Origin: a virus | Length of the DNA stretch: 64,000 nt | IMG/VR virus record: IMGVR_UViG_3300023296_001674 | Reading direction: 5' to 3' (one strand) | Made by a program: the position numbers and the translations under genes | Notes under the pieces: model-generated | The model's database searches: none | Told to the model about the DNA's origin: nothing | What the model saw: only the letters and a program-made list of their open reading frames with translations | Shown: piece by piece, positions 3,089-54,675 of the stretch | Layout of the letters: each line of letters opens with the position of its first letter | Numbering within the stretch: position 1 is the stretch's first letter

Positions 3089-3292
3089 GTGTTTAATCGT
3101 AAAAAGCCACATTGTCATTATTATCGCAACGGTGAATATTTTGATCATGGTAGATATATATTCGATAAAAAACCCAATCGCGGTGATATCATAGCACCAT
3201 TTAGAAATAATGCGGGTGATATAAAATTTAGAGTATTATCAATTGAATTGGATGATGATGTGTTTAAAATAGAAATAGAAACAGTGGAGTAA
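3089..3292 (+). CDS. hypothetical small protein
   Basis: GTG start 7 nt after AAAGGAG; 67 aa; directly upstream of aspS. Confidence 0.35.
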   Translation: MFNRKKPHCHYYRNGEYFDHGRYIFDKKPNRGDIIAPFRNNAGDIKFRVLSIELDDDVFKIEIETVE

Positions 3293-14128: not shown

Positions 14129-14184
14129 TCTATTGACCTTTTAGATATATATGGTATTATTACATATATTTAAAGGAGTTGAAA

Positions 14185-15204
14185 ATGTTATTAGAACGTG
14201 ATAAATTTAGAGAAGGTGTGTTTGAACGCGATAGTCATAAGTGCGTCATGTGTGATGCACCTGCTCAAGATGCTCATCACATCATTGAACGTAGGCTCTT
14301 TACGGATGGTGGCTATTACTTAGATAATGGGTCTAGCCTGTGTGGTGAACATCATTTAGCAGCCGAATATACAACGCTTTCGCCACAAGAAATTCGTGAA
14401 AAAATAGGCATCACTAAAGTCGTATTACCAGAGCATTTATACCGCGATCAAGAGTATGACAAATGGGGCAACCCTATGTTACCTAACGGCACACGCCTTA
14501 AGGGTGATTTGTTTGATGATTTGTCGGTTCAGAAAGCATTAAAGGCTGGTGGCGTTTTGGGAAGTTTTACGCACTTAGTGAAATATCCAAGAACATATCA
14601 TGTAATGTGGAGTCCCGGTTTAAGTAATGATGACCGTGCGCATAACTCATTGGATCAGTTTGAAGGAAAAAATGTTGTCGTCCATTTGAAGATGGACGGT
14701 GAAAACGCAAGTTTTTATAATGATCATTATCACGCACGTTCGTTAGATACTGTTAATCATCCATCTCGCAAATGGGCTAAAATGCTTCATGCGCGTATTA
14801 TGGGTGATATACCAGAAAGCTGGCGTGTGTGTGCTGAGAATTTGTATGCTGAACATTCGATTCATTATGACGATCTTGAAGCCTTCGTTCTTGCTTTTTC
14901 TATATGGAATGAAAAAAATGAATGCCTTGGTTGGGATGAAACCCAAGATTGGTTTGAGTTGTTAGAAGTTCCACAAGTTCCAGTTTTGTATGAAGGATTA
15001 TTTTCAGAAGAAAAGTTGCATGAAATTGAATCAACGCTTGATTTTGAAATTGATGAAGGATATGTGATGAGAACGCGAGATAGTTTCCATTATAATGACT
15101 TTCGGCAAAATGTCGCTAAATATGTTCGTAAAGGGCATGTTCAACATTCAACCGAAGGACACTGGATCAATCGACCAATTACGCCTAATGAACTGAGAAA
15201 ATAA
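14185..15204 (+). CDS. HNH-motif / ATP-dependent nucleic-acid (RNA) ligase fusion protein
   Basis: N-terminal CVMCDAPAQDAHHIIER...NGSSLCGEHH (HNH zinc finger); central VHLKMDGENAS (nucleotidyltransferase motif I KxDG), IDEGYVMRTR (motif IV) and AKYVRKG (motif V) as in Rnl-family ligases. Confidence 0.5.
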   Translation: MLLERDKFREGVFERDSHKCVMCDAPAQDAHHIIERRLFTDGGYYLDNGSSLCGEHHLAAEYTTLSPQEIREKIGITKVVLPEHLYRDQEYDKWGNPMLPNGTRLKGDLFDDLSVQKALKAGGVLGSFTHLVKYPRTYHVMWSPGLSNDDRAHNSLDQFEGKNVVVHLKMDGENASFYNDHYHARSLDTVNHPSRKWAKMLHARIMGDIPESWRVCAENLYAEHSIHYDDLEAFVLAFSIWNEKNECLGWDETQDWFELLEVPQVPVLYEGLFSEEKLHEIESTLDFEIDEGYVMRTRDSFHYNDFRQNVAKYVRKGHVQHSTEGHWINRPITPNELRK

Positions 15205-21966: not shown

Positions 21967-23520
21967 ATGAAACCATTACATATCGTAATTGCTTTAATTT
22001 TAACACTTATTGGTGTTGGAGGAATGGTCGGGTATAAAGTGTTTGACGATGCTTCGTTGACTGCTTCCACGGATTCCGCTAATGTTCGCGAAACTGTAAA
22101 TATTGGTGTTGATAGTTGGGCTGGTTATACAGTGTTATGTTCAACTGAAACGAGACGATTAGCGCTTGTTGATGGCATTCTTGTAAAGTGTCACGATGAT
22201 AAAGCCAACTATACAGATCGTATGGCTAAACTAGCCAGTGAAGAATTGCAAATGGCTGCTGCTGCGGTTGATGGTTATGTTCTTGCAGGTGATGCAGTTA
22301 AATATCCGGGCAGTGTTACATTTGTTATCGATGAATCACAAGGTGGTGATGTTATTATCGCCAACGCAAGTGTAGCAAAAAATATCAATGATTTGAAAAA
22401 TCGCAGTGGTGTTAAAATTGCATTTACCCCTGATTCACCAAGTCAGACGTTACTTACTAAATGGAGTAGCGACTTTGATGTTAAAATTAATGATCCCAAG
22501 GCGATAACATTGGTTCACGCTAATGGTGCAGCAGACGCTGCTAAAAAACTTCAAAATGGTGAAGTAGATGTTGCAGTTGTTTGGGAACCACACGCATCCA
22601 AATTGTTAAGTAATGCAAATTTTGTTAAACTTATTGGCACAGAAAGCACTAAAAACCTTATCGTTGATGTGTTACTCACCAATCAGCGTTATGCAAAAAG
22701 CAATCCAGATGTAATGAAGACGGTTGTTAAATCATACTTTTTAGCATTGGAGCATTATAAAACAAACACCAAAGAATTTGATGATGAGATTATTCGTTAT
22801 GCTGGTGCCAGCCGTGATCAAGTTGACGCAATTAAAGCGGGTATCAATTGGGTTGATTTACCACACAATGCCGCAGATTGGTTGGGTATTAGTCAAACTG
22901 GCGGTAAAGCGCAACGACAGTTGTATGACACCTTCAACTCTGCGGTTCGTTTATATGTCAATAGTGGTGATTTTACTACAAGCCCTATTCCTGGTGATGA
23001 TCCGTTTCGTTTGATTGATTCAAGTGCATTCAATGACGTATATACATTGGGAATGACTGGAAAACTTGGTGTTATGTTTCAACCTATCACAGTTATCAAA
23101 GACGTTAGTGTTACACGCCCCTTTAAGAAACTTTCACCGGGTCGTTGGGCTAAACTTAAAGATATTGGATCATTGAAATTACAAGCTATTACGTTCAAGC
23201 GTGGAACATACGAACTTGAATCAACAGGTCAATCCGCATTCAAATCATTGGTTGAAATGCTTGAAACATATCCAAATTATCGCATTAAAGTTGTGGGTCA
23301 TTCGGGCAAGCGCGGAGATCAAGCGGCTAATATGGTTCTTTCTAAAAAACGTTCTATATCTGCGGCAAAATATTTGATGGACAAATATGGCATTGACAAA
23401 AATCGAATTTACGCGTATGGTGTAGGCAATGGACAGCCACCTCGCCGTGAAACCGGTGAAACGAAACGTGCATATAATGCAAGGTGGCCTCGTGTTGAAC
23501 TTATTTTAGTGGAAGGATAA
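21967..23520 (+). CDS. membrane-anchored substrate-binding-fold (NMT1/SsuA-like) protein with C-terminal OmpA-like domain
   Basis: N-terminal TM helix; GEVDVAVVWEPHASKLL binding-protein fold; C-terminal VVGHSGKRGDQAANMVLSKKRSISAAKYL (OmpA/MotB peptidoglycan-binding motif); intact paralog of the split gene at 18993. Confidence 0.6.
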   Translation: MKPLHIVIALILTLIGVGGMVGYKVFDDASLTASTDSANVRETVNIGVDSWAGYTVLCSTETRRLALVDGILVKCHDDKANYTDRMAKLASEELQMAAAAVDGYVLAGDAVKYPGSVTFVIDESQGGDVIIANASVAKNINDLKNRSGVKIAFTPDSPSQTLLTKWSSDFDVKINDPKAITLVHANGAADAAKKLQNGEVDVAVVWEPHASKLLSNANFVKLIGTESTKNLIVDVLLTNQRYAKSNPDVMKTVVKSYFLALEHYKTNTKEFDDEIIRYAGASRDQVDAIKAGINWVDLPHNAADWLGISQTGGKAQRQLYDTFNSAVRLYVNSGDFTTSPIPGDDPFRLIDSSAFNDVYTLGMTGKLGVMFQPITVIKDVSVTRPFKKLSPGRWAKLKDIGSLKLQAITFKRGTYELESTGQSAFKSLVEMLETYPNYRIKVVGHSGKRGDQAANMVLSKKRSISAAKYLMDKYGIDKNRIYAYGVGNGQPPRRETGETKRAYNARWPRVELILVEG

Positions 23521-39222: not shown

Positions 39223-39289
39223 TCTATTGACATCTCCGCACATTTATGTTATATTGGAATCATTATTAACACAAAGAAAGGATAATATC

Positions 39290-39727
39290 ATGTTGAATAA
39301 ACTGTCCGCTGCAACCATCCAAGCACGTAAAGATAAAAACGGAGACGCTAAATTATTGGTTACGTTTCTCTCCGAAGTTCGAATGCGTGCCAAAGATGAT
39401 GGCAATCGTGAAGTGACTGACACTGATATCGTTAAAGTTGCGCAAAAATTCATGAAATCAGCAAAAGAAACAGTAGGCATTCTTCAAAAAGACGATAGCC
39501 GACCAGATGCCCTTACAGCCGCACTACGTGAAATCGAAGTGCTTGATGCGTATATTCCTACACTTATGGATGAAGACGCTACACGGGCTGCTGTAGCCGC
39601 TGCAATCGAAGCAACTGGCGCTACCGATATGTCTGATATGGGTAGAATTATGGGTGAATTGAAAAAATCACACGGCGTAACCATTAATATGGGTCTTGCT
39701 TCCGGTATTTTGAAAACGTCATTCTAA
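39290..39727 (+). CDS. GatB/YqeY-domain protein
   Basis: MLNKLSAATIQARKDKNGDAKLLVTFLSEVRMRAKD...DIVKVAQKFMKSAKE matches the YqeY/GatB C-terminal domain; ATG at 39290 after AAGGA. Confidence 0.55.
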   Translation: MLNKLSAATIQARKDKNGDAKLLVTFLSEVRMRAKDDGNREVTDTDIVKVAQKFMKSAKETVGILQKDDSRPDALTAALREIEVLDAYIPTLMDEDATRAAVAAAIEATGATDMSDMGRIMGELKKSHGVTINMGLASGILKTSF

Positions 39728-40201: not shown

Positions 40202-40534
40202 ATGAAGTTTTCATTTAATATGGATATGTATGGCGCATTCAATACTAAACTCGACTGGCAATATGAACAACATGGCGAAGGTGACGTATTGATTACCGTG
40301 TATCCTACCGAAGAAGCCGATAGTGGTGTAGCTTCAGTGTTGTCATTCGAAGAAATGTTCACAGAACTCGTTTCGTTGAATATGCTGGTCGGGAAAGACG
40401 TTTTTCCTAAAGAAGCAGATAAAATGGAAATGGTGGATGAATTATATCGTATTCATGAAAGTTTTATGGATGCATTTAACGCCGCTAAAGATCGTGTGGT
40501 TGATGCTAAAGTATCTAAAATTAAAAAGAAATAA
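40202..40534 (+). CDS. hypothetical protein
   Basis: 110 aa; AAGGAGAA SD. Confidence 0.4.
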   Translation: MKFSFNMDMYGAFNTKLDWQYEQHGEGDVLITVYPTEEADSGVASVLSFEEMFTELVSLNMLVGKDVFPKEADKMEMVDELYRIHESFMDAFNAAKDRVVDAKVSKIKKK

Positions 40535-40584
40535 TTGACAGAAAGAGGTAGTTGAGGTAATATAAAAATAGATAAACAACCGAT

Positions 40585-40665
40585 GCTGGTAACGCATAGT
40601 GGGGGTGCAGCGTGCTCATAACGCGCCGACGAAAGTCCGGGTTGGTTCGATTCCAACTATCAGTA
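40585..40665 (+). tRNA. atypical tRNA-like gene: anticodon CAU, long variable arm, no encoded CCA
   Basis: acceptor GCTGGTA/TATCAGT (7 bp, 2 G-U); D arm GCAT-agtgggg-GTGC; anticodon arm GCGTG-CTCATAA-CGCGC (U33, CAU, A37, A38); 14-nt variable arm with GAAA tetraloop; T arm GTTGG-TTCGATT-CCAAC; A8 rather than U8. Confidence 0.45.
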
Positions 40666-40685
40666 CATATAAGAAATGGTTGGCT

Positions 40686-41366
40686 TTAGCCGACTATTTT
40701 TTTGACTTCAATAAAAGCACTTTCTGGTGAGAAATAACGATCTTCAAATATGACTACATTCCATCCATTTTCTTTGAATAGTTTTTGTTTGATTCGGTCT
40801 CTATTTTGAACTTGTTTTAAACTATGCACCAAGCCTACCATTTCTTTATAATGCCATGGGCCATTCCATAGGATTGCTATTTTATGATCATTTAGTATAA
40901 TGTCTGCGTCCCATCCATCTACTAAATGTTTATTGTGGTCTACGTTGTTGTATTTTTGATGACATAAATCATATAATGCCATTTCATCTTTACTTCGCAA
41001 ACATCGTTTTTGTGCGGATATTTTGCCGCCTATAAGACCACCTTTTTTGCCTGCTGCACGTAGTCTATTATTGAAACAACTTGTAGAACAAGTTTTGCGT
41101 TTTCTATTTTTCGTTGGATGGTTTTTTGACGGTGTGTTATAAAACTTGACACCACAACTATTACACTCGCACCATATTATTGGCGAGTAATCACCATCGA
41201 TGCCGTTATATTTAAGAACGGATAAACGTGTTTTATTTTTACTGTGTTCTGAACGTTTTCTATTTTTGTTGTTGAATGTCGCGGCACATTGGCGGCTACA
41301 ATACTTGCGTCTATGATCGTTTGTTTCAAACTCATTTCCACATTGTTCACATTTTTTGATTTTCAT
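40686..41366 (-). CDS. Vsr/DUF559-type homing endonuclease with N-terminal zinc fingers
   Basis: CEQCGNEF...CSRQC and CECNSCG...CSTSC fingers; C-terminal DGWDADIILNDHKIAILWNGPWHY...NGWNVVIFEDRYF (DUF559/Vsr fold). Confidence 0.55.
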   Translation of the reverse strand: MKIKKCEQCGNEFETNDHRRKYCSRQCAATFNNKNRKRSEHSKNKTRLSVLKYNGIDGDYSPIIWCECNSCGVKFYNTPSKNHPTKNRKRKTCSTSCFNNRLRAAGKKGGLIGGKISAQKRCLRSKDEMALYDLCHQKYNNVDHNKHLVDGWDADIILNDHKIAILWNGPWHYKEMVGLVHSLKQVQNRDRIKQKLFKENGWNVVIFEDRYFSPESAFIEVKKIVG

Positions 41367-41477
41367 TTTGACTTACCCTAGTTAAACAGTTATAAATAAT
41401 GCAGCGGGACAGTCTGTCACCCTAGTCAGATTTCCTATTTGTTCGAAGCATTTAGGATTACCGCTATTAGTATTTAT

Positions 41478-42317
41478 TCAAGTGAATATTTTAAATGCAG
41501 GATTTTTTTGTATATTTTCCATCCTTTTTTCTGCTATTTCTATATATTTTTCTTCTAAGTCTATACCAATGAAAGACCGATTGTTTTTGAGGCAAGCTAC
41601 GCCTGTTGTTCCGCTACCCATGAATGGGTCTAATACTACGCCTTGTTCCGGTGATAACAGTTTGATCAACCATGATGCTAAATTTTCTGGATATTGCGCT
41701 GGATGTGTATTAAATTTGTCTTTGTTAGATTCATGTGTCCCGACTTCGACGTAATCTTTGCATCTCGCGATTCCTGATTTGGCGGTGCTTACGCTATCGA
41801 TATATTCATTAACGCCTTTCACTGATTCCATGCCTATTCTATCCGAAACCACACCATTCGCTTTAGGATCGCAATAGCTACGCTGATCTAATGAAAACCA
41901 ATGTATGCTTTCCCAACTTCTTCTAGGGCGATAGTTGCTACCTAATGGTGCAGATGTAGGTTTAATCCATATCAATTCTTCACACTCGCGCCAACCATCT
42001 TCACGTATTGCTAGTCTCATTTTTAATGTATAATCACTGATTTGACCTTCTTTGATATGTGGTCTAATCACGATTGCCACATTACCGGCTGGTTTAAGAA
42101 TTCGTTTGACTTGTTGCATCCATTTTACAGTCCATTCAGGGTAATCGTGTTCATTGATTCCGTTGTATAATCCATCGCGTTGTTCGGCATACGGTGGTGA
42201 AGTTAACACCAAGTCTACAGAATTATCTTCTATATTTGTTATTTGTTCTAATAAATCACCTTTAAATATAATCAATTTTAGCACTCCAATAAAATAATTT
42301 CCTATTGTATTTATCAT
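41478..42317 (-). CDS. beta-class DNA amino-methyltransferase (N6-adenine or N4-cytosine)
   Basis: motif IV DLVLTSPPY precedes motif I DPFMGSGTTG (beta-class order); true start may be the internal TTG preceded by GGAGTG. Confidence 0.7.
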   Translation of the reverse strand: MINTIGNYFIGVLKLIIFKGDLLEQITNIEDNSVDLVLTSPPYAEQRDGLYNGINEHDYPEWTVKWMQQVKRILKPAGNVAIVIRPHIKEGQISDYTLKMRLAIREDGWRECEELIWIKPTSAPLGSNYRPRRSWESIHWFSLDQRSYCDPKANGVVSDRIGMESVKGVNEYIDSVSTAKSGIARCKDYVEVGTHESNKDKFNTHPAQYPENLASWLIKLLSPEQGVVLDPFMGSGTTGVACLKNNRSFIGIDLEEKYIEIAEKRMENIQKNPAFKIFT

Positions 42318-42535
42318 TATTAAATACGGTGTTTATTATATCAATATGTATATATATCAAATGGTTAGACCCTTGCGCAAAAATTCAATTTCATCATTTA
42401 GTTAGTTTTTGATTTTATGCGCAACCATGATTTTTGAAAATAATTAAAAACAATGCTTGACAATATATAATAATGGATATATGGTGTATATTATATAAAT
42501 CCAATAATTGAAACTATACAATGAGGTATTAAAAA

Positions 42536-45046
42536 ATGAGTAACCAACAGCCAAGTATTATCCGTATCGGTGATATACCATCTAATGATGATTCACCTGT
42601 AAATGAAACCCTTGCTACTATTGTACCGTTTTCCAACGCTTTAAAAAAACAAAGCAATTTCGATAAATTAGTAAATGATCATTTATTGTATATTGATTAT
42701 TCTTATCCTATAATGTCATATTTAACTTCACATTTAAAAAATGTTATAATTCCAGAAAAAGATGGTGTTTCAATAGTTGTAAACATGAAACCATATGATA
42801 AAAATTTATTTTTAGCAATGAATAGATCAGAGCAACGAGATATAATTAATAAAGCACATAATTCTGGTTATAAAAAATTAATTACAGCATTGAAAAATGG
42901 CGAAAAACATCCCATTGGAACACCACATTTAAACGCTATTAGAACATTAGTTGAGCGGGTTATTCCGTCGTTATTGAATGACCCATCTAAATGTAAAAAT
43001 ATTAATGGACCAACACAATCTGGAAAATCTAGTTTGGCGCATATTATGTCTTGGTTGGAGCCAATTATGTGTTTAATGACAGGTCGTAAATATTTTAATA
43101 TCAATGTAGGAACAAATAAATTGGCGCATGGATCGCAATATCGTGAAGAGCTTGATGTGTTTTTGGATTTGTTCGGCGACGTTGAATTTGAATATGCTAA
43201 ATCTGAAATTGCATATAAATCATCCAGAGTGTCATTAAATCAACTTCGTAAACTCAATAACGATGCCATAGATCGTATGTGCAAATCGTATAATGAATAT
43301 CAATTGTCATTTAAAGAAAACGTCGAAGACGGTGGAAATGAATATCTAAAATCTGTATTTGTAGCGAGAACAAATAAACTGCAATGCATTTCAGATATCC
43401 AACAATTGTGCCAAAATGCCGATCTCGAAGGATTTGATTTATTATATTTGGTTGATGAACATCATTATGGCGCTGACACCGATAGCATATTATATCAAAT
43501 TATGTCTATACATAACACAGATGGAAATAATCTAGCGAGTGAAAACTCAAATCATATATGGATAGGGTTTTCCGCTACTGCATATGATTTCAATCATTTG
43601 GAAAAAATAGATAATATTAAACAATTTCTCGGTGATAATTACTGCGGGTTTAATGTTCTTCAGGGTGATATATATGATACTGATGCGGCAGTTATCAATC
43701 CGGTTTTATATACATTCGACGAGGCAGCTAAGATTTATGATTGTGAAGGTCTGCAACACATTAATATAAAATTACTTAGTAATAAATCTAAGTATAATAA
43801 AAAGCCGCAATTCATTGGTGGGGAAAAATTAACACATGATGAATATTATACATATTGCATGAATGCAGTAGATTTATTTATAACCAATGTTTTACTTGAC
43901 GGAAATGGCGATAATGATAAGACACTAATGTTAATGAGATGGCATCATTCTAACGCAATTACTGATATAATTGAAAATTATATAGTCAACACGATGGGAA
44001 TAAAAGTGATCAATTTCAGAATAACGCCATCAACCACAAAAAAAGATAAAGAAACATCTATTGCTAAACGTATCGAAAATGAAGTGGGCAATGAAAAAGC
44101 TATTATTTTGGTGACTGGTAATGGTAGAATGGCTGATTCGTTTCCTATATGTGTAAAATATTATGTCGATTTTACTGAAACTATTGGATCACAAGCGGCA
44201 TTTATTCAAGGCACCCTTGGGCGTTCTACTGGTTACGGCAAACAATCTGTTGTGTTCATGAATAGAAAGAATATTGGCGCTATTAGAGCTTATGCTATTG
44301 AAGGATTTTATTCAAAACATCCAACAAAAAATTTAAAATTGGGGGATAAAGTTGGAAATTCTAAACCTATTATCAATATGGCGTTTAATAGATATGGCAA
44401 TCTTTTCGATCATCAACCTATTATAGATACTTTTCAATCAATTGTTGCCAAATATCTTAGTAATGATGTATCACATATTGATATAAAGAAACAGTTAGCA
44501 TCCGCGTCAAATAAAGCTAATAAATTAAATGGTATTACTGCACGTGGATATATTGATTTATGGAATATATATCTCCCTGAAGATGTGATGCAAACACTAG
44601 AAGATATATGCAATAGTTCATTGTTGCGTGCAGGGGTTGGGCATGTTACGGAAAATCCACTAAAACCTAAATTTAATGGTGAAGGATATGATTATAAAGG
44701 TGGTCAGACAGGCGAACCTATTAGACCATCTGATATAGGATTTAGAAACATGACCGAGAAGGATAATGAAAAAGGGCATATGTCAAAGCGTATGAAAGAT
44801 GATCGCAACAAAGGTGGTACAAGCGGCAAGAAACCATCCGGTTTATCTTTGGCACCACAAATTGGTGTTAAATTTGAAGATGGAAAATGGCTATTTGTCG
44901 AGATTGAATTGCGTTTGAAATATGGTTCATATACCCAACATAAAACATCTTCTACCGCATATCTTGATCATACCAGCAAATCATCTGCTGTAGAATTCAT
45001 GAATGATGATGAAATTCAGCACTCAATATTAATGCAAGGGGTATAA
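42536..45046 (+). CDS. SF2 (DExH) helicase-like P-loop NTPase, possible restriction (Res-like) or phage ATPase
   Basis: 836 aa; motif I NGPTQSGKSS, motif II LYLVDEHHYG, motif III GFSATAYDF; divergently transcribed from the MTase gene across a 218-bp AT-rich spacer. Confidence 0.4.
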   Translation: MSNQQPSIIRIGDIPSNDDSPVNETLATIVPFSNALKKQSNFDKLVNDHLLYIDYSYPIMSYLTSHLKNVIIPEKDGVSIVVNMKPYDKNLFLAMNRSEQRDIINKAHNSGYKKLITALKNGEKHPIGTPHLNAIRTLVERVIPSLLNDPSKCKNINGPTQSGKSSLAHIMSWLEPIMCLMTGRKYFNINVGTNKLAHGSQYREELDVFLDLFGDVEFEYAKSEIAYKSSRVSLNQLRKLNNDAIDRMCKSYNEYQLSFKENVEDGGNEYLKSVFVARTNKLQCISDIQQLCQNADLEGFDLLYLVDEHHYGADTDSILYQIMSIHNTDGNNLASENSNHIWIGFSATAYDFNHLEKIDNIKQFLGDNYCGFNVLQGDIYDTDAAVINPVLYTFDEAAKIYDCEGLQHINIKLLSNKSKYNKKPQFIGGEKLTHDEYYTYCMNAVDLFITNVLLDGNGDNDKTLMLMRWHHSNAITDIIENYIVNTMGIKVINFRITPSTTKKDKETSIAKRIENEVGNEKAIILVTGNGRMADSFPICVKYYVDFTETIGSQAAFIQGTLGRSTGYGKQSVVFMNRKNIGAIRAYAIEGFYSKHPTKNLKLGDKVGNSKPIINMAFNRYGNLFDHQPIIDTFQSIVAKYLSNDVSHIDIKKQLASASNKANKLNGITARGYIDLWNIYLPEDVMQTLEDICNSSLLRAGVGHVTENPLKPKFNGEGYDYKGGQTGEPIRPSDIGFRNMTEKDNEKGHMSKRMKDDRNKGGTSGKKPSGLSLAPQIGVKFEDGKWLFVEIELRLKYGSYTQHKTSSTAYLDHTSKSSAVEFMNDDEIQHSILMQGV

Positions 45047-45050
45047 CGAC

Positions 45051-45998
45051 ATGTATGATCGCAAATTAAAAAATCTCGCGAGACAAAAAATTCTTGAATA
45101 TATGGCAATAGATGATGTAATTGTTGGTGATAGTATATGGTTTCCTGCCTCGCAAGCATTATGTGTATTACAGGCACAACAAATGGGTTTGCTGACTCAA
45201 AATACCATATTGGTAGAGAAAGATGCTTCAATAATTGACGATTTTGATCAAATAACTGAACATCTTCCAAATAGAATCATTCATCATGGTGAATTGAGTG
45301 CTCTAAAATTAATTAATGACGTATCTTATGCATTTTTTGATTTAAATGGATGCATGGATGAAAAAATAGCCCGATGGGTTGTCGAAAATTTTATACCATA
45401 TGTTAAATTCGGTGGAATTTATTCATTTAATTATTTATATGGCAATCGTTCTAATATATTTCAGCCTAAAATATTATCAGCATTGAAGAAATTGACAATT
45501 TATAAACAACTTAAAAAATATATGAATGAAGAAGATGATTTGATAATGGGTCCGTTAGCGCTTTTACATTGTTTGTTTGACGATTTAGATGTATATCATA
45601 ATGAGCCTATATATTATTGTGACACGGTTCCAATGTGTACATATACGTTGGAAATTGTATCTGATAAAAAATCTATCAGAGCATGGCCCACCATTGATGA
45701 ACTAATTGACATGATGGATAATCCATCGCCCATCAGACCTGTGAAATCACACAGACCTGTAAAACCCGCGACAATAACGTCGCATATACCAAGGAGAAAG
45801 AATATGACTGCAACGCAACAAATTGATGCTCTTGTTAAGAGTGGCAAAATTACAAAAAAAAGTGCTGGTGCATATAAAGCCAATATCACTAGAAAACATC
45901 GTGTTATTGATAATGATAAATCGTTATCATCTGGTAGCGCGGCGGCAAAAAAAGCTCATATTTCGAGAAAGATTCTATCCTCTGCTAAAGGGATTTAA
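45051..45998 (+). CDS. hypothetical protein, possibly TylF-like class I methyltransferase fold, with basic C-terminal tail
   Basis: FFDLNGCMDEKIARWVVENFIPYVKFGGIYSFNY resembles the TylF/MycF C-terminal motif (weak). Confidence 0.3.
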   Translation: MYDRKLKNLARQKILEYMAIDDVIVGDSIWFPASQALCVLQAQQMGLLTQNTILVEKDASIIDDFDQITEHLPNRIIHHGELSALKLINDVSYAFFDLNGCMDEKIARWVVENFIPYVKFGGIYSFNYLYGNRSNIFQPKILSALKKLTIYKQLKKYMNEEDDLIMGPLALLHCLFDDLDVYHNEPIYYCDTVPMCTYTLEIVSDKKSIRAWPTIDELIDMMDNPSPIRPVKSHRPVKPATITSHIPRRKNMTATQQIDALVKSGKITKKSAGAYKANITRKHRVIDNDKSLSSGSAAAKKAHISRKILSSAKGI

Positions 45999-46172
45999 TA
46001 TATAAAGTGCCTCATCATAACGGTGGGGCATTTTTTATTGCGCCACGTTTCCTCATTGTGGTATACTCATGAAATAATAATTTAAAGAGGAAATATCACG
46101 AGAACATTTAAAGCCCCGAAATTAACTGGCGTAAGAAAAAAAGCACAAAAACGATTATCCATAAAAAACGAA

Positions 46173-46736
46173 TTGCTAGATTTAGCAAATAGCAGTGCAA
46201 CCAAGCCAAGACAGTGCACTGAAATTGGAATGAAATTGATTAGATTCACAAACCAAAAAAGTTCCACGTTTAATTCGGAATTAAGAGAAGAATTGAAAGC
46301 GATTAGACCTGAATGGTTTAAAACTGAAACCGTATCATATAAAAAACAAAAACTTGTATTTATGGCTGAGAATAAATTGAGTCGCCCTGTTCATACTAGC
46401 AAAATAGGTCAGGCCGTTGGAAACTATACATCTGGACACGGTGGTGCTTATGATGCATCATTCGATGTAGAACTACGGTCACTTTCACCAAAATGGTTTA
46501 GAGGTAGACTAGCCAAATACAAAAATACCGATTTTACAAAACCGAAGAAACCAAGAGTTCCGGTATCCGAAAAGAAAGCAGAATTGCTTAGACTTGCGTC
46601 AACTGGTAAAGGGCGACCTAATTATAGCCATCCTTATGGAAATGTTTTGGGTGGATACATTTGTAAAACTTCAAACGGATACGATGAAGCATTCAGTAAT
46701 CAAATACGTTCGTTGCGTCCAGATTGGTTCAAATAG
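46173..46736 (+). CDS. hypothetical protein with three LRxLRP(E/D/K)WF repeats
   Basis: ELKAIRPEWFK / ELRSLSPKWFRG / IRSLRPDWFK spaced about 60 aa apart. Confidence 0.4.
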   Translation: MLDLANSSATKPRQCTEIGMKLIRFTNQKSSTFNSELREELKAIRPEWFKTETVSYKKQKLVFMAENKLSRPVHTSKIGQAVGNYTSGHGGAYDASFDVELRSLSPKWFRGRLAKYKNTDFTKPKKPRVPVSEKKAELLRLASTGKGRPNYSHPYGNVLGGYICKTSNGYDEAFSNQIRSLRPDWFK

Positions 46737-53424: not shown

Positions 53425-54675
53425 ATGTCGCATGTTTTTAAAAATGATTTAATGGTGGATTTGACCGATAGAGGTTTTATACACTCTACTACGGCTGACA
53501 CCAATCTCGAAAACGCATTAAGTGAGCCATGCGTCATTTACTGTGGATTTGATTGCACTGCTGATTCTTTGCATATTGGTAGTTTAGTCCAACTTAAAAT
53601 GTTAAAAAAGTTTAAAGACGCTGGTCATGTAGTGGTTCCAGTTATTGGAACTGCTACGACTAAAATTGGCGATCCATCTGGTCGCGATACGGCAAGACCG
53701 TTACTTACAGATGAAGAAATTGATCGTAATGCTAGGGGCATCGAATTCAGCATTTCTAATGTGGTTGATGCTGATGAAGTTATACACAATCATGAATTTA
53801 TTGAAGAACTTGACGTCGTTGATTTCATGCGCAATATCGGTAGTAAGATATCCATCAACACAATGATGAATCTTGAAAGCGTTCGTTCGAGAATGGAAGG
53901 CGACGAAGGAATGTCATTTCTTGAATTTTCATACAGTTTATTTCAAGCATACGATTTCTACAATATCATCAATGAAAACCCAACCATGCATGTAATTCAA
54001 ATAGGCGGCAGTGATCAATGGGGTAATATCACCATGGGTTTGGAGTTGGCTAAAAAAATGTGGGATAGCAAAAATCCAATGAAAGAAGCATTTGGCATTA
54101 CAACGCCATTGTTGACATCGTCTAATGGTCAAAAAATGGGCAAAACTGCGGATGGTGTAGTATGGCTCAATGGGAGCAAAATGACTGCATTGGATTTCTG
54201 GCAATTTTGGAGAAATATTCCAGATGATGATCTATTCCATTTGTTGCGATTATTTAGCGATTCAAGTCTTGAATTAATAAACCATATGGATGAGCACGGC
54301 AGTGAAACAGATGGTTACATCAACATGATGAAAAAATCATTCGCTTGTGAAATGACTTCTATGATTCGCGGTAACGATGAATCATTAAAAGCGGCAAAAA
54401 TGGCAGAAAGCATATTTGAAGATAAATCAGATATTGATTTACCAGAACATAAAGTTGATCGAGAATGCATGGTTAGTAATCTTGCATTGACTGTCTTTTT
54501 ACGCGAAGAAGGATTTATGAAATCATCCGGCGAAGCCAAACGCATGATTCAACAAGGTGGAATTCGTATAGACAACGTTAAGGTCGACGATGTCAATACT
54601 ATTATATCATCAAAAGGTGAATCATTCAAACTAAGCATAGGACAAAAGAAACATTACAGGATTGAATTTGAATGA
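53425..54675 (+). CDS. tyrS: tyrosine--tRNA ligase, bacterial type with C-terminal S4 domain
   Basis: HIGH motif (DSLHIGSL); KMSKS variant (QKMGKT); C-terminal S4-like RNA-binding domain; 416 aa. Confidence 0.85.
   Translation: MSHVFKNDLMVDLTDRGFIHSTTADTNLENALSEPCVIYCGFDCTADSLHIGSLVQLKMLKKFKDAGHVVVPVIGTATTKIGDPSGRDTARPLLTDEEIDRNARGIEFSISNVVDADEVIHNHEFIEELDVVDFMRNIGSKISINTMMNLESVRSRMEGDEGMSFLEFSYSLFQAYDFYNIINENPTMHVIQIGGSDQWGNITMGLELAKKMWDSKNPMKEAFGITTPLLTSSNGQKMGKTADGVVWLNGSKMTALDFWQFWRNIPDDDLFHLLRLFSDSSLELINHMDEHGSETDGYINMMKKSFACEMTSMIRGNDESLKAAKMAESIFEDKSDIDLPEHKVDRECMVSNLALTVFLREEGFMKSSGEAKRMIQQGGIRIDNVKVDDVNTIISSKGESFKLSIGQKKHYRIEFE

What the first reader, a model, noticed from the sequence alone, without database searches (positions are those of the whole stretch)
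40585..45046. Candidate restriction-modification / defence islet: tRNA-like gene, Vsr homing endonuclease, beta-class MTase divergent from an 836-aa DExH ATPase
The MTase (motif IV SPPY before motif I FxGxG) and the large SF2 protein (motifs I GKS, II DEHH, III SAT) are transcribed divergently from a 218-bp AT-rich spacer. The spacer contains the 8-bp palindrome TTGCGCAA and a second TGCGCAA nearby. This resembles Mod/Res-like or other ATP-dependent restriction or anti-restriction pairs, but the MTase is small (279 aa) for a type III Mod, so it may be a novel pairing or a phage self-protection methylase with an unrelated helicase.
Basis: partly seen in the sequence, partly recalled or inferred. 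Interest (0 to 1): 0.5.

Follow-up and report, generated by a model that had tools for sequence, protein, structure and literature searches.

The report
Phage methylase-linked helicase-like gene pair
In an uncultured huge phage, a DNA methyltransferase sits beside an unannotated motor-protein gene and its unannotated partner gene, and this arrangement recurs with unrelated methyltransferases in many other huge phages, so it is probably an undescribed methylation-linked conflict module rather than a classical restriction enzyme.

Summary
These are a tRNA(CAU), a 226-aa nuclease-like ORF, a beta-class SPPY methyltransferase, and a divergent 836-aa ATPase with intact SF2 motifs.

Three points change the picture.
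1. A homologous partner follows the ATPase in all 11 phage-type lineages with downstream sequence. Neither protein matches Pfam, PHROGs, NCBIfam or PADLOC.
2. A DNA methyltransferase abuts this pair in 10 of 13 independent loci. The class varies (beta N6/N4, Dam-like, C5) and so does the orientation, so the link is real.
3. The ATPase has no nuclease domain and does not fit Mod/Res. The TGCGCAA sites are the arms of one inverted repeat that the closest relative lacks.

The tRNA slot, nuclease and methyltransferase form a 1.8-kb segment that is 75-93% identical in nucleotides to a phage whose flanking genes are only 41-58% identical in protein. This points to recent exchange.

The mechanism is unresolved. 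I favour an ATP-driven helper or protector of DNA methylation over a restriction-like effector. Bacterial relatives lie in a defence island next to nucleases.

The parts
40535..40563 (+). Sigma-70-like promoter of the tRNA gene (TTGACA-N17-TAATAT)
   Evidence: Consensus scan gives 10 of 12 matches. The hexamers and their surroundings are conserved at the same place in L001. Function is inferred.
40585..40666 (+). tRNA with CAU anticodon (Met or Ile2 type), 82 nt, with a 13-nt variable arm
   Evidence: ARAGORN. Rfam RF00005 scores 38.2 bits against gathering 29. Cloverleaf MFE fold. L001 has a different tRNA in the same slot, with a 51-nt insert in the anticodon loop.
40679..40704 (.). Hairpin GTTGGC-TTTA-GCCGAC followed by a T-run. 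Terminator-like, lying between the tRNA and the 3' end of the 226-aa gene.
   Evidence: Read directly. Nearly identical in L001. The consensus terminator scan did not list it.
40686..41366 (-). 226-aa nuclease-like protein: two CxxC...YCS/TCSxxC zinc-ribbon motifs at the N-terminus and a Vsr-like (PD-(D/E)xK clan) domain at the C-terminus. Either a free-standing homing endonuclease or the nuclease half of an R-M-like cassette.
   Evidence: ORF. phrog_1271 HNH endonuclease 2.1e-9 on the N-terminus and phrog_7140 intron-encoded nuclease 6.8e-5 on the C-terminus. Sub-threshold MTES_1575, RAP and zf-FCS. 73% identical to the L001 copy. No Pfam or PDB match at standard thresholds.
41478..42275 (-). 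Beta-class DNA methyltransferase (N6_N4_Mtase). Motif IV is SPPY, which suggests N4-cytosine. Probable TTG start at 42275; the longest ORF runs to 42317.
   Evidence: PF01555 4e-41. PADLOC MTase_II 2.8e-45. phrog_67 1.5e-60. Motif order. Start codon argued. 84.5% identical to the L001 copy. The reading of SPPY as m4C rests on established knowledge of amino-MTase motifs and was not tested.
42316..42344 (-). Sigma-70-like promoter of the MTase gene (TTGATA-N17-AATAAT)
   Evidence: Consensus scan gives 10 of 12 matches. It lies inside the stretch that is 83% identical in nucleotides to L001. Function is inferred.
42373..42424 (.). Inverted repeat TTGCGCAAAAATTCAA-N20-TTGATTTTATGCGCAA between the two divergent promoters. 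Possibly an operator.
   Evidence: z = -3.75; 0 of 200 shuffles fold as well. Not conserved in L001, which carries a different AT-rich inverted repeat at a similar position.
42457..42485 (+). Sigma-70-like promoter of the ATPase-partner operon (TTGACA-N17-TATGGT)
   Evidence: Both hexamers are conserved in L001. The pattern occurs twice in the window against 0.07 expected.
42536..45046 (+). 836-aa SF2 (DExH) ATPase of an unannotated family. A helical N-terminal domain (about 41-150), RecA1 (about 150-362), the family motif YxGxNxxxGxxxD (369-381), RecA2 (about 434-600), and a unique beta-rich C-terminal domain (600-836).
45051..45998 (+). 315-aa obligate partner of the ATPase, starting 4 nt after the ATPase stop. 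The conserved core (1-215) has a Rossmann/class-I-methyltransferase-like motif pattern (LPG...C, VExD, HxGEL, DFAFxDLxGS). The C-terminal tail is basic with KAxxTR(K/R) repeats.
   Evidence: Homologues lie immediately 3' of the ATPase gene in L001, L005, L006, L007, L008, L010, L011, L014 and L018-L022. Invariant P32, E56, A94, D97, G100, W109, R133, Y189, M195. No family or PDB hit. The only hint of fold is Methyltransf_24 at E = 0.047 in the L014 member. The fold is inferred, not shown.

Best explanation
The locus holds two units that keep company.

Unit 1 (40535-42344) comprises a tRNA gene slot, a 226-aa zinc-ribbon plus Vsr-like nuclease, and a small beta-class (SPPY, probably m4C) DNA methyltransferase. 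This segment has been exchanged recently between otherwise distant huge phages.

Unit 2 (42457-45998) is an early-promoter operon. It encodes an SF2 (DExH) ATPase of an unannotated family and a tightly coupled 315-aa partner with a methyltransferase-like Rossmann motif pattern. I infer that the two proteins form one complex.

Across huge phages, Unit 2 is almost always flanked by some DNA methyltransferase, of any class and in either orientation. Its function is therefore tied to DNA methylation as such, not to one recognition sequence.

My preferred mechanism is inferred, not shown. The ATPase translocates on phage DNA and, with its partner, assists or extends protective modification of the very large genome. 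It could do this by making DNA accessible to stand-alone methyltransferases or by carrying a modifying or SAM-binding subunit along the DNA. The logic resembles the P1 DarB methylase-helicase dyad, or remodeler-assisted methylation. The product would be a phage genome marked against restriction.

Shown: gene identities, motif integrity, the two-RecA fold, partner coupling, the methyltransferase association, and recent exchange of Unit 1.

Inferred: complex formation, DNA as the substrate, the fold and role of the partner, and the direction of the effect (protection rather than attack).
For: - Partner coupling holds in every phage-type locus with downstream DNA. Gaps run from a 4-nt space to an overlap.
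- An MTase is directly adjacent in 10 of 13 independent loci. These are window/L001, L007, L008, L010, L011, the P0010 contig, L012, L020, L021/22 and L018/19.
- The adjacent MTase classes differ: beta with SPPY, beta with DPPY, Dam-like and C5. Pairwise identity among the adjacent beta-class MTases compared is mostly about 23-30% (up to 42% for one later pair). They lie divergent upstream, or convergent and overlapping the partner's 3' end.
- A rough binomial gives p between 1e-7 and 4e-5 for this adjacency.
- The adjacent gene is the only MTase found in the 64-kb window with these loci's MTases as tblastn queries.
- A helper that needs no sequence readout explains naturally why the MTase class is interchangeable.
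- The ATPase motifs are intact and there is no nuclease signature.
- The partner's motif pattern resembles a class I MTase, with a weak Methyltransf_24 hit.
- A sigma-70-like promoter conserved in L001 fits early expression.
- Between the 240-aa gene and TyrRS, the only genes shared by the window and L001 are this block.
- Published precedent: helicase-like ATPases coupled to DNA methylases in phages, by fusion or by neighbourhood, with DarB protecting DNA in cis (PMC5512222). Jumbo phages carry multiple methylases, presumably against host restriction (PMC7824862).
Against: - The partner's fold is not demonstrated. It has no significant Pfam, PHROG or PDB hit and no hhalign relation to C5 MTases.
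- The partner's putative SAM loop tolerates 6-residue insertions, which is unusual for an active methyltransferase.
- Three loci (L005, L013, L014) show no adjacent MTase.
- Bacterial relatives sit in a defence island next to RNase_T and PD-(D/E)xK/RNase_H nucleases. Some phage loci carry restriction-endonuclease genes beside the MTase, such as an Eco29kI-like gene in L010. Both observations point toward an attacking, restriction-like role instead.
- Nothing tested here shows DNA rather than RNA as the substrate.
Confidence: 0.38

Rival explanations
1. Restriction-like, DISARM-like self/non-self module carried by the phage. The neighbouring methyltransferase marks phage DNA. The SF2 ATPase and its partner, possibly together with the adjacent small nuclease, attack or block unmarked DNA from the host or from competing phages.
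For: - Divergent or convergent, tightly packed layouts are typical of R-M operons.
- Nuclease genes lie beside the MTase in the window (Vsr-like) and in L010 (Eco29kI-type GIY-YIG, 2e-15).
- An RHH gene or small ORFs, or an inverted repeat, lie between the MTase and the ATPase gene, as in controller-regulated R-M systems.
- A bacterial homologue sits in a defence island with type I R-M, McrBC, and RNase_T and PD-(D/E)xK nucleases immediately downstream. The PD-(D/E)xK/RNase_H gene co-occurs again in L012.
- DISARM is a precedent for a helicase core working with interchangeable MTase classes. This last point is from my own knowledge.
Against: - No nuclease signature in the ATPase and none recognisable in the partner.
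- No PADLOC model hits the window protein or 55 relatives.
- A conserved effector could hardly read marks made by unrelated stand-alone MTases with different specificities.
- Three loci lack an adjacent MTase, which would be dangerous for a restriction-type effector.
Confidence: 0.25
2. There is no mechanistic link. The tRNA-nuclease-MTase segment is a selfish mobile cassette, either a homing endonuclease with a co-converted flank or a mobile type II R-M unit. It tends to land beside an unrelated helicase operon because conflict and accessory genes cluster in islands.
For: - The 1.8-kb segment is 75-93% identical in nucleotides between the window and L001, while the flanks are unalignable and neighbouring proteins are 41-58% identical.
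- The centre of the nuclease gene has diverged while its ends are conserved.
- The 226-aa protein has a homologue only in L001.
- HNH or intein-type selfish genes lie near other loci.
Against: - Adjacency of an MTase, often without any nuclease gene, holds in 10 of 13 independent loci. It involves three MTase classes and includes genes that overlap the partner's 3' end.
- Every operon boundary in a phage genome is equally permissive, and the window has only this one MTase in 64 kb.
- The binomial estimate is 1e-7 to 4e-5.
Confidence: 0.15
3. RNA-directed function. The SF2 protein is an RNA helicase and the partner an RNA methyltransferase-like protein, and they act on phage tRNA or mRNA. This would fit the translation-related genes around the locus.
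For: - The top Foldseek PDB hits are DEAD-box and DEAH RNA helicases such as Mss116, Prp43 and MDA5/RIG-I.
- The neighbourhood holds a tRNA, YqeY, TyrRS and an RNA ligase. L001 has a TilS-like gene and TyrRS.
Against: - This reading does not explain the recurrent adjacency to DNA methyltransferases and restriction-type nucleases.
- It also does not explain the defence-island context of the bacterial relatives.
Confidence: 0.07

Closest known systems
DarB-type DNA methylase-helicase dyad of phages and plasmids (phage P1 DarB; Iyer et al. 2017, PMC5512222)
   Same: A phage-encoded SF2-type ATPase functionally coupled to DNA methyltransferase activity, by fusion or by conserved neighbourhood. The proposed role is ATP-dependent protective modification of the element's own DNA.
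   Different: - DarB-type dyads use EcoKI/TaqI-like adenine MTases fused to SWI2/SNF2-clade ATPases, with the LPD36 domain.
- Here the ATPase belongs to a separate unannotated SF2 family, and the MTases are stand-alone beta-class, Dam-like or C5 enzymes.
- There is also an extra obligate 300-aa partner.
- Virion packaging is unknown.
DISARM (DrmA helicase, DrmB, DrmC, with DrmMI or DrmMII methyltransferase). The comparison with DISARM's architecture is from my own knowledge; only the PADLOC test was run here.
   Same: A conserved helicase plus a partner of unclear function, a methyltransferase whose class varies between subtypes, and an optional nuclease gene.
   Different: - No PADLOC hit for the window proteins or for 55 relatives of the ATPase.
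- No DUF1998 or PLD domains.
- The proteins are much smaller.
- Carried mainly by huge phages rather than bacterial chromosomes.
Type III restriction-modification (Mod/Res)
   Different: - No PD-(D/E)xK nuclease domain in the ATPase.
- The MTase is 265 aa, lacks the Mod architecture and is transcribed divergently.
- The MTase class is interchangeable between loci.
- There is an extra partner gene.
[not shown]
   Same: Three-gene logic: a methyltransferase, an SF2-like motor without a nuclease, and a separate effector protein of about 300-350 aa.
   Different: - The partner lacks the PLD HxK motif and a B3-like domain. Its invariant residues are P, E, A, D, G, W, R, Y and M.
- The gene order differs.
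Type II R-M cassettes with beta-class m4C/m6A methyltransferases, and free-standing phage homing endonucleases in tRNA regions (such as T4 SegB; from my own knowledge)
   Same: Unit 1 pairs a small beta-class MTase with a small nuclease gene on the same strand. It is laterally exchanged and lies next to a tRNA gene.
   Different: - It is not known whether the 226-aa protein is the MTase's cognate restriction enzyme.
- Its presumed DNA-binding centre has diverged (45-65% nucleotide identity) while the MTase stays 84.5% identical. This fits a homing enzyme better than a cognate restriction enzyme.

Membership tests
Superfamily 2 (DExH) helicase-like ATPases | Motifs I (GKS/T), II (DExH), III (SAT) and VI (QxxGRxxR-like) in canonical order on two RecA-like domains | tested here: met
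   [not shown]
Type III R-M Res subunit | C-terminal PD-(D/E)xK endonuclease domain fused to the SF2 motor | tested here: not met
   No conserved D/E/K triad outside the ATPase core. The only extra near-invariant acidic residue is D381. The C-terminal domain (600-836) matches nothing in PDB or BFVD. No Pfam, PADLOC or NCBIfam hit.
Type III R-M Mod subunit | Mod architecture: a beta-class MTase of about 600 aa with a central target-recognition domain, co-transcribed with res | tested here: not met
   The MTase is 265-279 aa and PF01555 covers it end to end. It is transcribed divergently. The best PADLOC models are MTase_II and orphan MTase.
Beta-class N6/N4 DNA methyltransferases (Pfam N6_N4_Mtase, PF01555) | Motif IV (D/S)PP(Y/F) N-terminal to motif I FxGxG, and a score above the Pfam gathering threshold | tested here: met
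   141.8 bits against a cutoff of 26.7. SPPY at residue 40 and DPFMGSG at residue 230.
N4-cytosine-specific subgroup of amino-methyltransferases | m4C product; an SPPY/F motif IV is typical | not testable with these tools
   The SPPY motif is present. The modified base and the target sequence need methylome or biochemical data.
Vsr (very short patch repair) endonuclease family / Vsr-like PD-(D/E)xK nucleases | A significant match to Vsr or a related clan model, with the catalytic Asp and His in place | tested here: inconclusive
   Pfam Vsr is not hit. Only sub-threshold MTES_1575 (E = 0.085 and 0.027) and RAP (0.0013 in the L001 copy) appear. phrog_7140 'intron encoded nuclease' gives 6.8e-5. 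No PDB sequence hit. The D-A-D-I-I / W-N-G-P-W-H / N-R-D-R...G-W pattern resembles Vsr by eye (inference).
Known anti-phage defence systems (PADLOC-DB v2: DISARM, BREX, Druantia, Hachiman, Hma and others) | A match of the ATPase or its partner to any component model | tested here: not met
   No PADLOC family at E <= 0.1 for the 836-aa protein. The 315-aa protein gives only AbiEi at 0.027, which is not credible. No hits at all for 56 family members.
DarB-like methylase-helicase dyad (polyvalent-protein type) | An EcoKI/TaqI-like adenine MTase coupled to a SWI2/SNF2-clade ATPase, with the LPD36 domain, delivered in the virion | tested here: not met
   The adjacent MTases are beta-class, Dam-like or C5. 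No SNF2_N or SWI2_SNF2 Pfam hit in 56 members. Virion packaging cannot be tested here. The neighbourhood coupling of an ATPase with an MTase is met.
GREB1-type circularly permuted SF2 (Pfam PF20692) | Circular permutation of the helicase motifs | tested here: not met
   5 of 56 relatives, and the LR756511 homologue, give weak partial hits over the DExH-SAT region only. The motif order in this family is canonical, I-II-III-VI.
Class I SAM-dependent methyltransferase fold (for the 315-aa partner) | A Rossmann fold with a glycine-rich SAM loop, an acidic residue at the end of beta-2, and motif IV at the end of beta-4 | tested here: inconclusive
   The motif pattern LPG..C / VExD / HxGEL / DFAFxDLxGS, with invariant E56 and D97. 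One sub-threshold Methyltransf_24 hit at E = 0.047. No hits in Pfam at E <= 10, in PHROGs or in PDB. hhalign against C5 MTases is negative. The SAM loop is degenerate and tolerates insertions.
tRNA | Cloverleaf scoring above the Rfam RF00005 gathering threshold | tested here: met
   38.2 bits against 29. ARAGORN call. Cloverleaf MFE fold.

The most novel reading that the evidence does not exclude
The SF2 ATPase and its 300-aa partner form a previously undescribed, mainly huge-phage-borne conflict system that works together with any DNA methyltransferase. It would be either a generic ATP-driven 'methylation helper/protector' or a new restriction-like effector. Bacterial cousins swap the partner for RNase_T and PD-(D/E)xK nucleases in defence islands. 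Both protein families currently lack any model in Pfam, PHROGs, NCBIfam or PADLOC.
Probability: 0.4. Interest if true: 0.72.

Novelty: new variant of a known kind. Interest (0 to 1): 0.55.

Why it matters
Huge phages must protect, or weaponise, very large genomes, and how they manage DNA methylation at that scale is unknown. This work defines a compact and testable three-to-four-gene module.

- The module consists of an MTase, a new SF2 ATPase family with at least 217 sequence clusters, a new partner family, and sometimes a small nuclease.
- Its recurrence with interchangeable methyltransferase classes argues for a general, methylation-coupled ATP-dependent mechanism.
- If it aids methylation, it would be a prokaryotic-virus analogue of remodeler-assisted methylation and a new anti-restriction strategy.
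- If it restricts, it would be a new R-M-like system encoded by phages, with defence-island relatives in bacteria.
- Either way, it gives names and boundaries to two protein families that are invisible to current annotation and defence-finder pipelines.

Tried and rejected
- Nucleotide search of 40400-46100 against GenBank phages found nothing. tblastn of the ATPase, the partner and two relatives found only the unannotated 595-kb record LR756511.1. Plasmids gave no match.
- Pfam, PHROGs, PADLOC and NCBIfam gave nothing for the 836-aa and 315-aa proteins.
- Sequence searches of the ATPase and partner profiles against the PDB gave nothing meaningful.
- The first AF2 run, with a 2-sequence alignment, was useless (pLDDT 31.8). 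It was redone with 81 sequences.
- Fold searches returned only generic SF2 cores. The afdb50 library was unavailable.
- Word-indexed homologue searches with profiles returned almost nothing. The search for related loci with broad alignments failed or confirmed nothing.
- Rejected: terminase or replicative helicase, because there is no such profile or fold match.
- Rejected: GREB1-type permuted helicase, because the motif order is canonical.
- Rejected: a nuclease in the C-terminal half of the ATPase, because there is no conserved catalytic set.
- Rejected: PLD or PD-(D/E)xK nuclease for the partner, because it has no HxK and no conserved (D/E)xK.
- Rejected: partner homologous to the RNase_T gene that follows the bacterial homologue (hhalign negative).
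- Rejected: partner related to C5 MTases.
- Rejected: TGCGCA as a depleted or enriched restriction-type word.
- Rejected: the palindromes as a conserved operator.
- The small ORFs upstream of relatives (L007 74 aa, L015 93 aa) gave no controller-protein or HTH match.
- A literature search for the KAWxTRR motif found nothing.

Full report
**Source and setting.** The window has about 35% GC with genes almost all on one strand. Its 836-aa protein is found on a 570,750-bp metagenomic contig. Other genes include TyrRS, an RNA ligase, YqeY and two tRNAs. It therefore comes from an uncultured huge phage. No GenBank phage shares nucleotide similarity with the region.

**Checking the observation.** Every feature is present.
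- The tRNA(CAU) at 40585-40666 is called by ARAGORN. It scores 38.2 bits on Rfam tRNA (gathering 29) when a short stretch is searched. Two wider Rfam scans lost it to filters.
- The 226-aa ORF (40686-41366, minus strand) has two CxxC...CSxxC zinc-ribbon motifs. Its C-terminal domain matches a PHROG of intron-encoded nucleases (6.8e-5). It matches the Vsr-like clan families MTES_1575 and RAP only below threshold, so 'Vsr-like' is plausible but weak.
- The MTase is a clear PF01555 member (4e-41), with SPPY before DPFMGSG.
- The MTase start is probably the TTG at 42275, behind a GGAG. In the relative L001 the upstream ATG frame hits a stop.
- The 836-aa protein carries GPTQSGKS, DEHH, SAT and QGTLGR.
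- The two TGCGCAA sites are the ends of one inverted repeat with 16-nt arms. It folds better than all shuffles. The word itself is not enriched, and the repeat is missing from L001.

**What the 836-aa protein is.** It hits nothing in Pfam, PHROGs, PADLOC or NCBIfam.
- An exhaustive HMMER search of 1.84 billion cluster representatives found 217 relatives (131 at E <= 1e-10), mostly 650-1100 aa.
- Across 56-81 relatives the invariant residues are the SF2 motifs plus a family-specific YxGxNxxxGxxxD motif, R468, R531 and R737.
- A few relatives reach Pfam ResIII (8 of 56) or the DExH-SAT part of the GREB1 helicase model (5 of 56). None of the 56 hits any PADLOC model.
- With the 81-sequence alignment, AlphaFold gives a confident model (pLDDT 81.5, pTM 0.82).

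**The missed partner.** The 315-aa gene starts 4 nt after the ATPase stop.
- A homologue follows the ATPase gene, overlapping it or within a few nucleotides, in L001 (47% identity), LR756511 (27%), L006, L007, L008, L010, L011, L014 (hhalign probability 99.8%) and five IMG/VR huge-phage contigs.
- Its invariant residues are P32, E56, A94, D97, G100, W109, R133, Y189 and M195.
- They sit in a pattern (LPG..C, VExD, HxGEL, DFAFxDLxGS) that reads like beta1 to beta4 of a class I methyltransferase.
- The only database support is one sub-threshold Methyltransf_24 hit. All other searches were negative. The fold therefore remains an inference.
- Several members end in a basic SAAAxKAWxTRRANGW motif, which is degenerate in the window protein.

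**The methyltransferase link.** I examined 13 independent loci with usable flanks. In ten of them a DNA MTase directly abuts the ATPase-partner pair.
- Beta-class, divergent upstream: window/L001, L008, L020 and L021/22.
- Beta-class, convergent and overlapping the partner's 3' end: L007, L010 and L011.
- Dam-like, convergent: L018/19.
- C5, divergent upstream: L007 and the P0010 contig. L010 carries an extra C5 gene.
- A 612-aa beta-class MTase upstream and co-directional: L012 (all).

Most adjacent beta-class MTases are only about 23-30% identical to one another (the L021 and L001 pair reaches 42%) and carry either SPPY or DPPY. L005, L013 and L014 show none. The window's 64 kb contains no other MTase detectable with these queries. 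A rough binomial puts this adjacency at p between 1e-7 and 4e-5. The coupling is real, and it is to DNA methylation in general rather than to one enzyme.

**The left-hand unit.** Protein identity between the window and L001 is as follows.

| Gene | Identity (%) |
|---|---|
| MTase | 84.5 |
| 226-aa protein | 73 |
| ATPase | 41 |
| Partner | 47 |
| 240-aa gene | 56 |
| TyrRS | 58 |

- At nucleotide level, 40650-42330 is 75-93% identical, with a dip to 45-65% in the centre of the nuclease gene. Both flanks fall to background.
- The tRNA promoter, T-arm and terminator hairpin are also shared. However, L001 holds a different tRNA with a 51-nt insert in its anticodon loop.
- The tRNA slot, nuclease and MTase therefore behave as a recently exchanged segment. 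This fits a homing endonuclease with co-converted flanks, or a mobile R-M-like cassette.
- L010 carries a genuine Eco29kI-type restriction-endonuclease gene beside its MTase.

**Bacterial relatives.** One family member lies on a 5.5-Mb alphaproteobacterial chromosome, inside a defence island with type I R-M, an AAA_15 ATPase, REase-ARP and McrBC. There it is followed by RNase_T and PD-(D/E)xK/RNase_H genes instead of the phage partner. The RNase_T gene is not homologous to the partner. The PD-(D/E)xK/RNase_H gene recurs near the family member in L012. The motor thus appears in conflict systems with exchangeable effectors.

**Mechanism.**
- Shown: an intact SF2 motor, an obligate partner, recurrent MTase adjacency, a conserved sigma-70-like promoter (TTGACA-N17-TATGGT), and lateral exchange of the MTase cassette.
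- Preferred inference (about 0.38): the pair is an ATP-driven helper or extender of protective DNA modification. It needs no sequence readout, which explains why any MTase class will do. This parallels the published methylase-helicase dyad typified by P1 DarB (PMC5512222) and the multiplicity of methylases in jumbo phages (PMC7824862).
- Main rival (about 0.25): a DISARM-like restriction logic. It is supported by the nuclease neighbours and the defence-island relatives. It is weakened by the lack of any nuclease signature and by the three loci without an MTase.
- Lesser rivals: pure island co-location (about 0.15) and an RNA-directed role (about 0.07).

**Novelty and verdict.** Helicase-methylase coupling is a known theme. 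However, this ATPase family, its partner family and their class-independent MTase association are not covered by any library or paper I could search. I rate it a new variant of a known kind, of moderate interest.

Noticed in passing
window 40585-40665: The tRNA(CAU) has a 13-nt variable arm, unusual for a Met/Ile2-type tRNA. Rfam finds it (38.2 bits) only when a 141-nt stretch is searched. A 6.5-kb E-value scan and the whole-window gathering scan both missed it.
   Followed up: partly
L001 8040-8162: At the homologous slot the related phage has a tRNA (Rfam 43.1 bits) with a 51-nt insertion in the anticodon loop. ARAGORN missed it. It shares the promoter and terminator hairpin with the window's tRNA gene.
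   Followed up: partly
L001 6239-6314: A tRNA with a CTA anticodon (amber suppressor, labelled 'Pyl' by ARAGORN) overlaps a called ORF in the related huge phage. This may hint at stop-codon reassignment or suppression.
   Followed up: no
window 46173-46736: A 187-aa ORF with three internal repeats ending in RPEWFK, SPKWFR and RPDWFK. It has no family hit and no homologue in L001.
   Followed up: no
window 41010-41250: The centre of the 226-aa nuclease gene (linker plus second zinc ribbon) is only 45-65% identical to L001 in nucleotides, while both ends are 83-93% identical. This may reflect diversification of DNA-binding specificity.
   Followed up: partly
window 23393-23421 and 42457-42485: The promoter-like pattern TTGACA-N17-TATGGT occurs twice in the window against 0.07 expected. 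It may be a phage early-promoter variant.
   Followed up: partly
window 14179-15204, 39227-39727, 53425-54675: An RNA ligase (phrog_24030, 2.8e-130) with HNH-like N-terminal hits, a YqeY-like protein and a tyrosyl-tRNA synthetase. Together these are a translation and RNA-repair gene set typical of huge phages.
   Followed up: no
L001 18791-20002 (also L002 11838-13049): An IS605 OrfB/TnpB (Cas12f-like TNB) gene lies inside the related huge-phage genome.
   Followed up: no
L006, L007, L010, L014 partner C-termini; window 45051-45998 C-terminus: A conserved basic motif SAAAxKAWxTRRANGWVHPA ends several partner proteins. It appears twice in degenerate form in the window protein. A full-text literature search for four variants of its core (KAWETRR, KAWATRR, AWETRR, KAWDTRR) found nothing.
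   Followed up: partly
L017 1939-4226: In a second alphaproteobacterial MAG the ATPase homologue (65% identity) is split across two reading frames near 3108-3126, through a frameshift or pseudogenisation. It also lacks the downstream nuclease genes.
   Followed up: no
L006 3789-4184: The gene after the partner in this locus gives a weak hit to ART-PolyVal (ADP-ribosyltransferase of polyvalent proteins, E = 8e-4). This is another conflict-type neighbour.
   Followed up: no
L010 14493-17510: A 1005-aa gene with intein and LAGLIDADG hits lies next to the MTase/REase cluster of this huge-phage contig.
   Followed up: no
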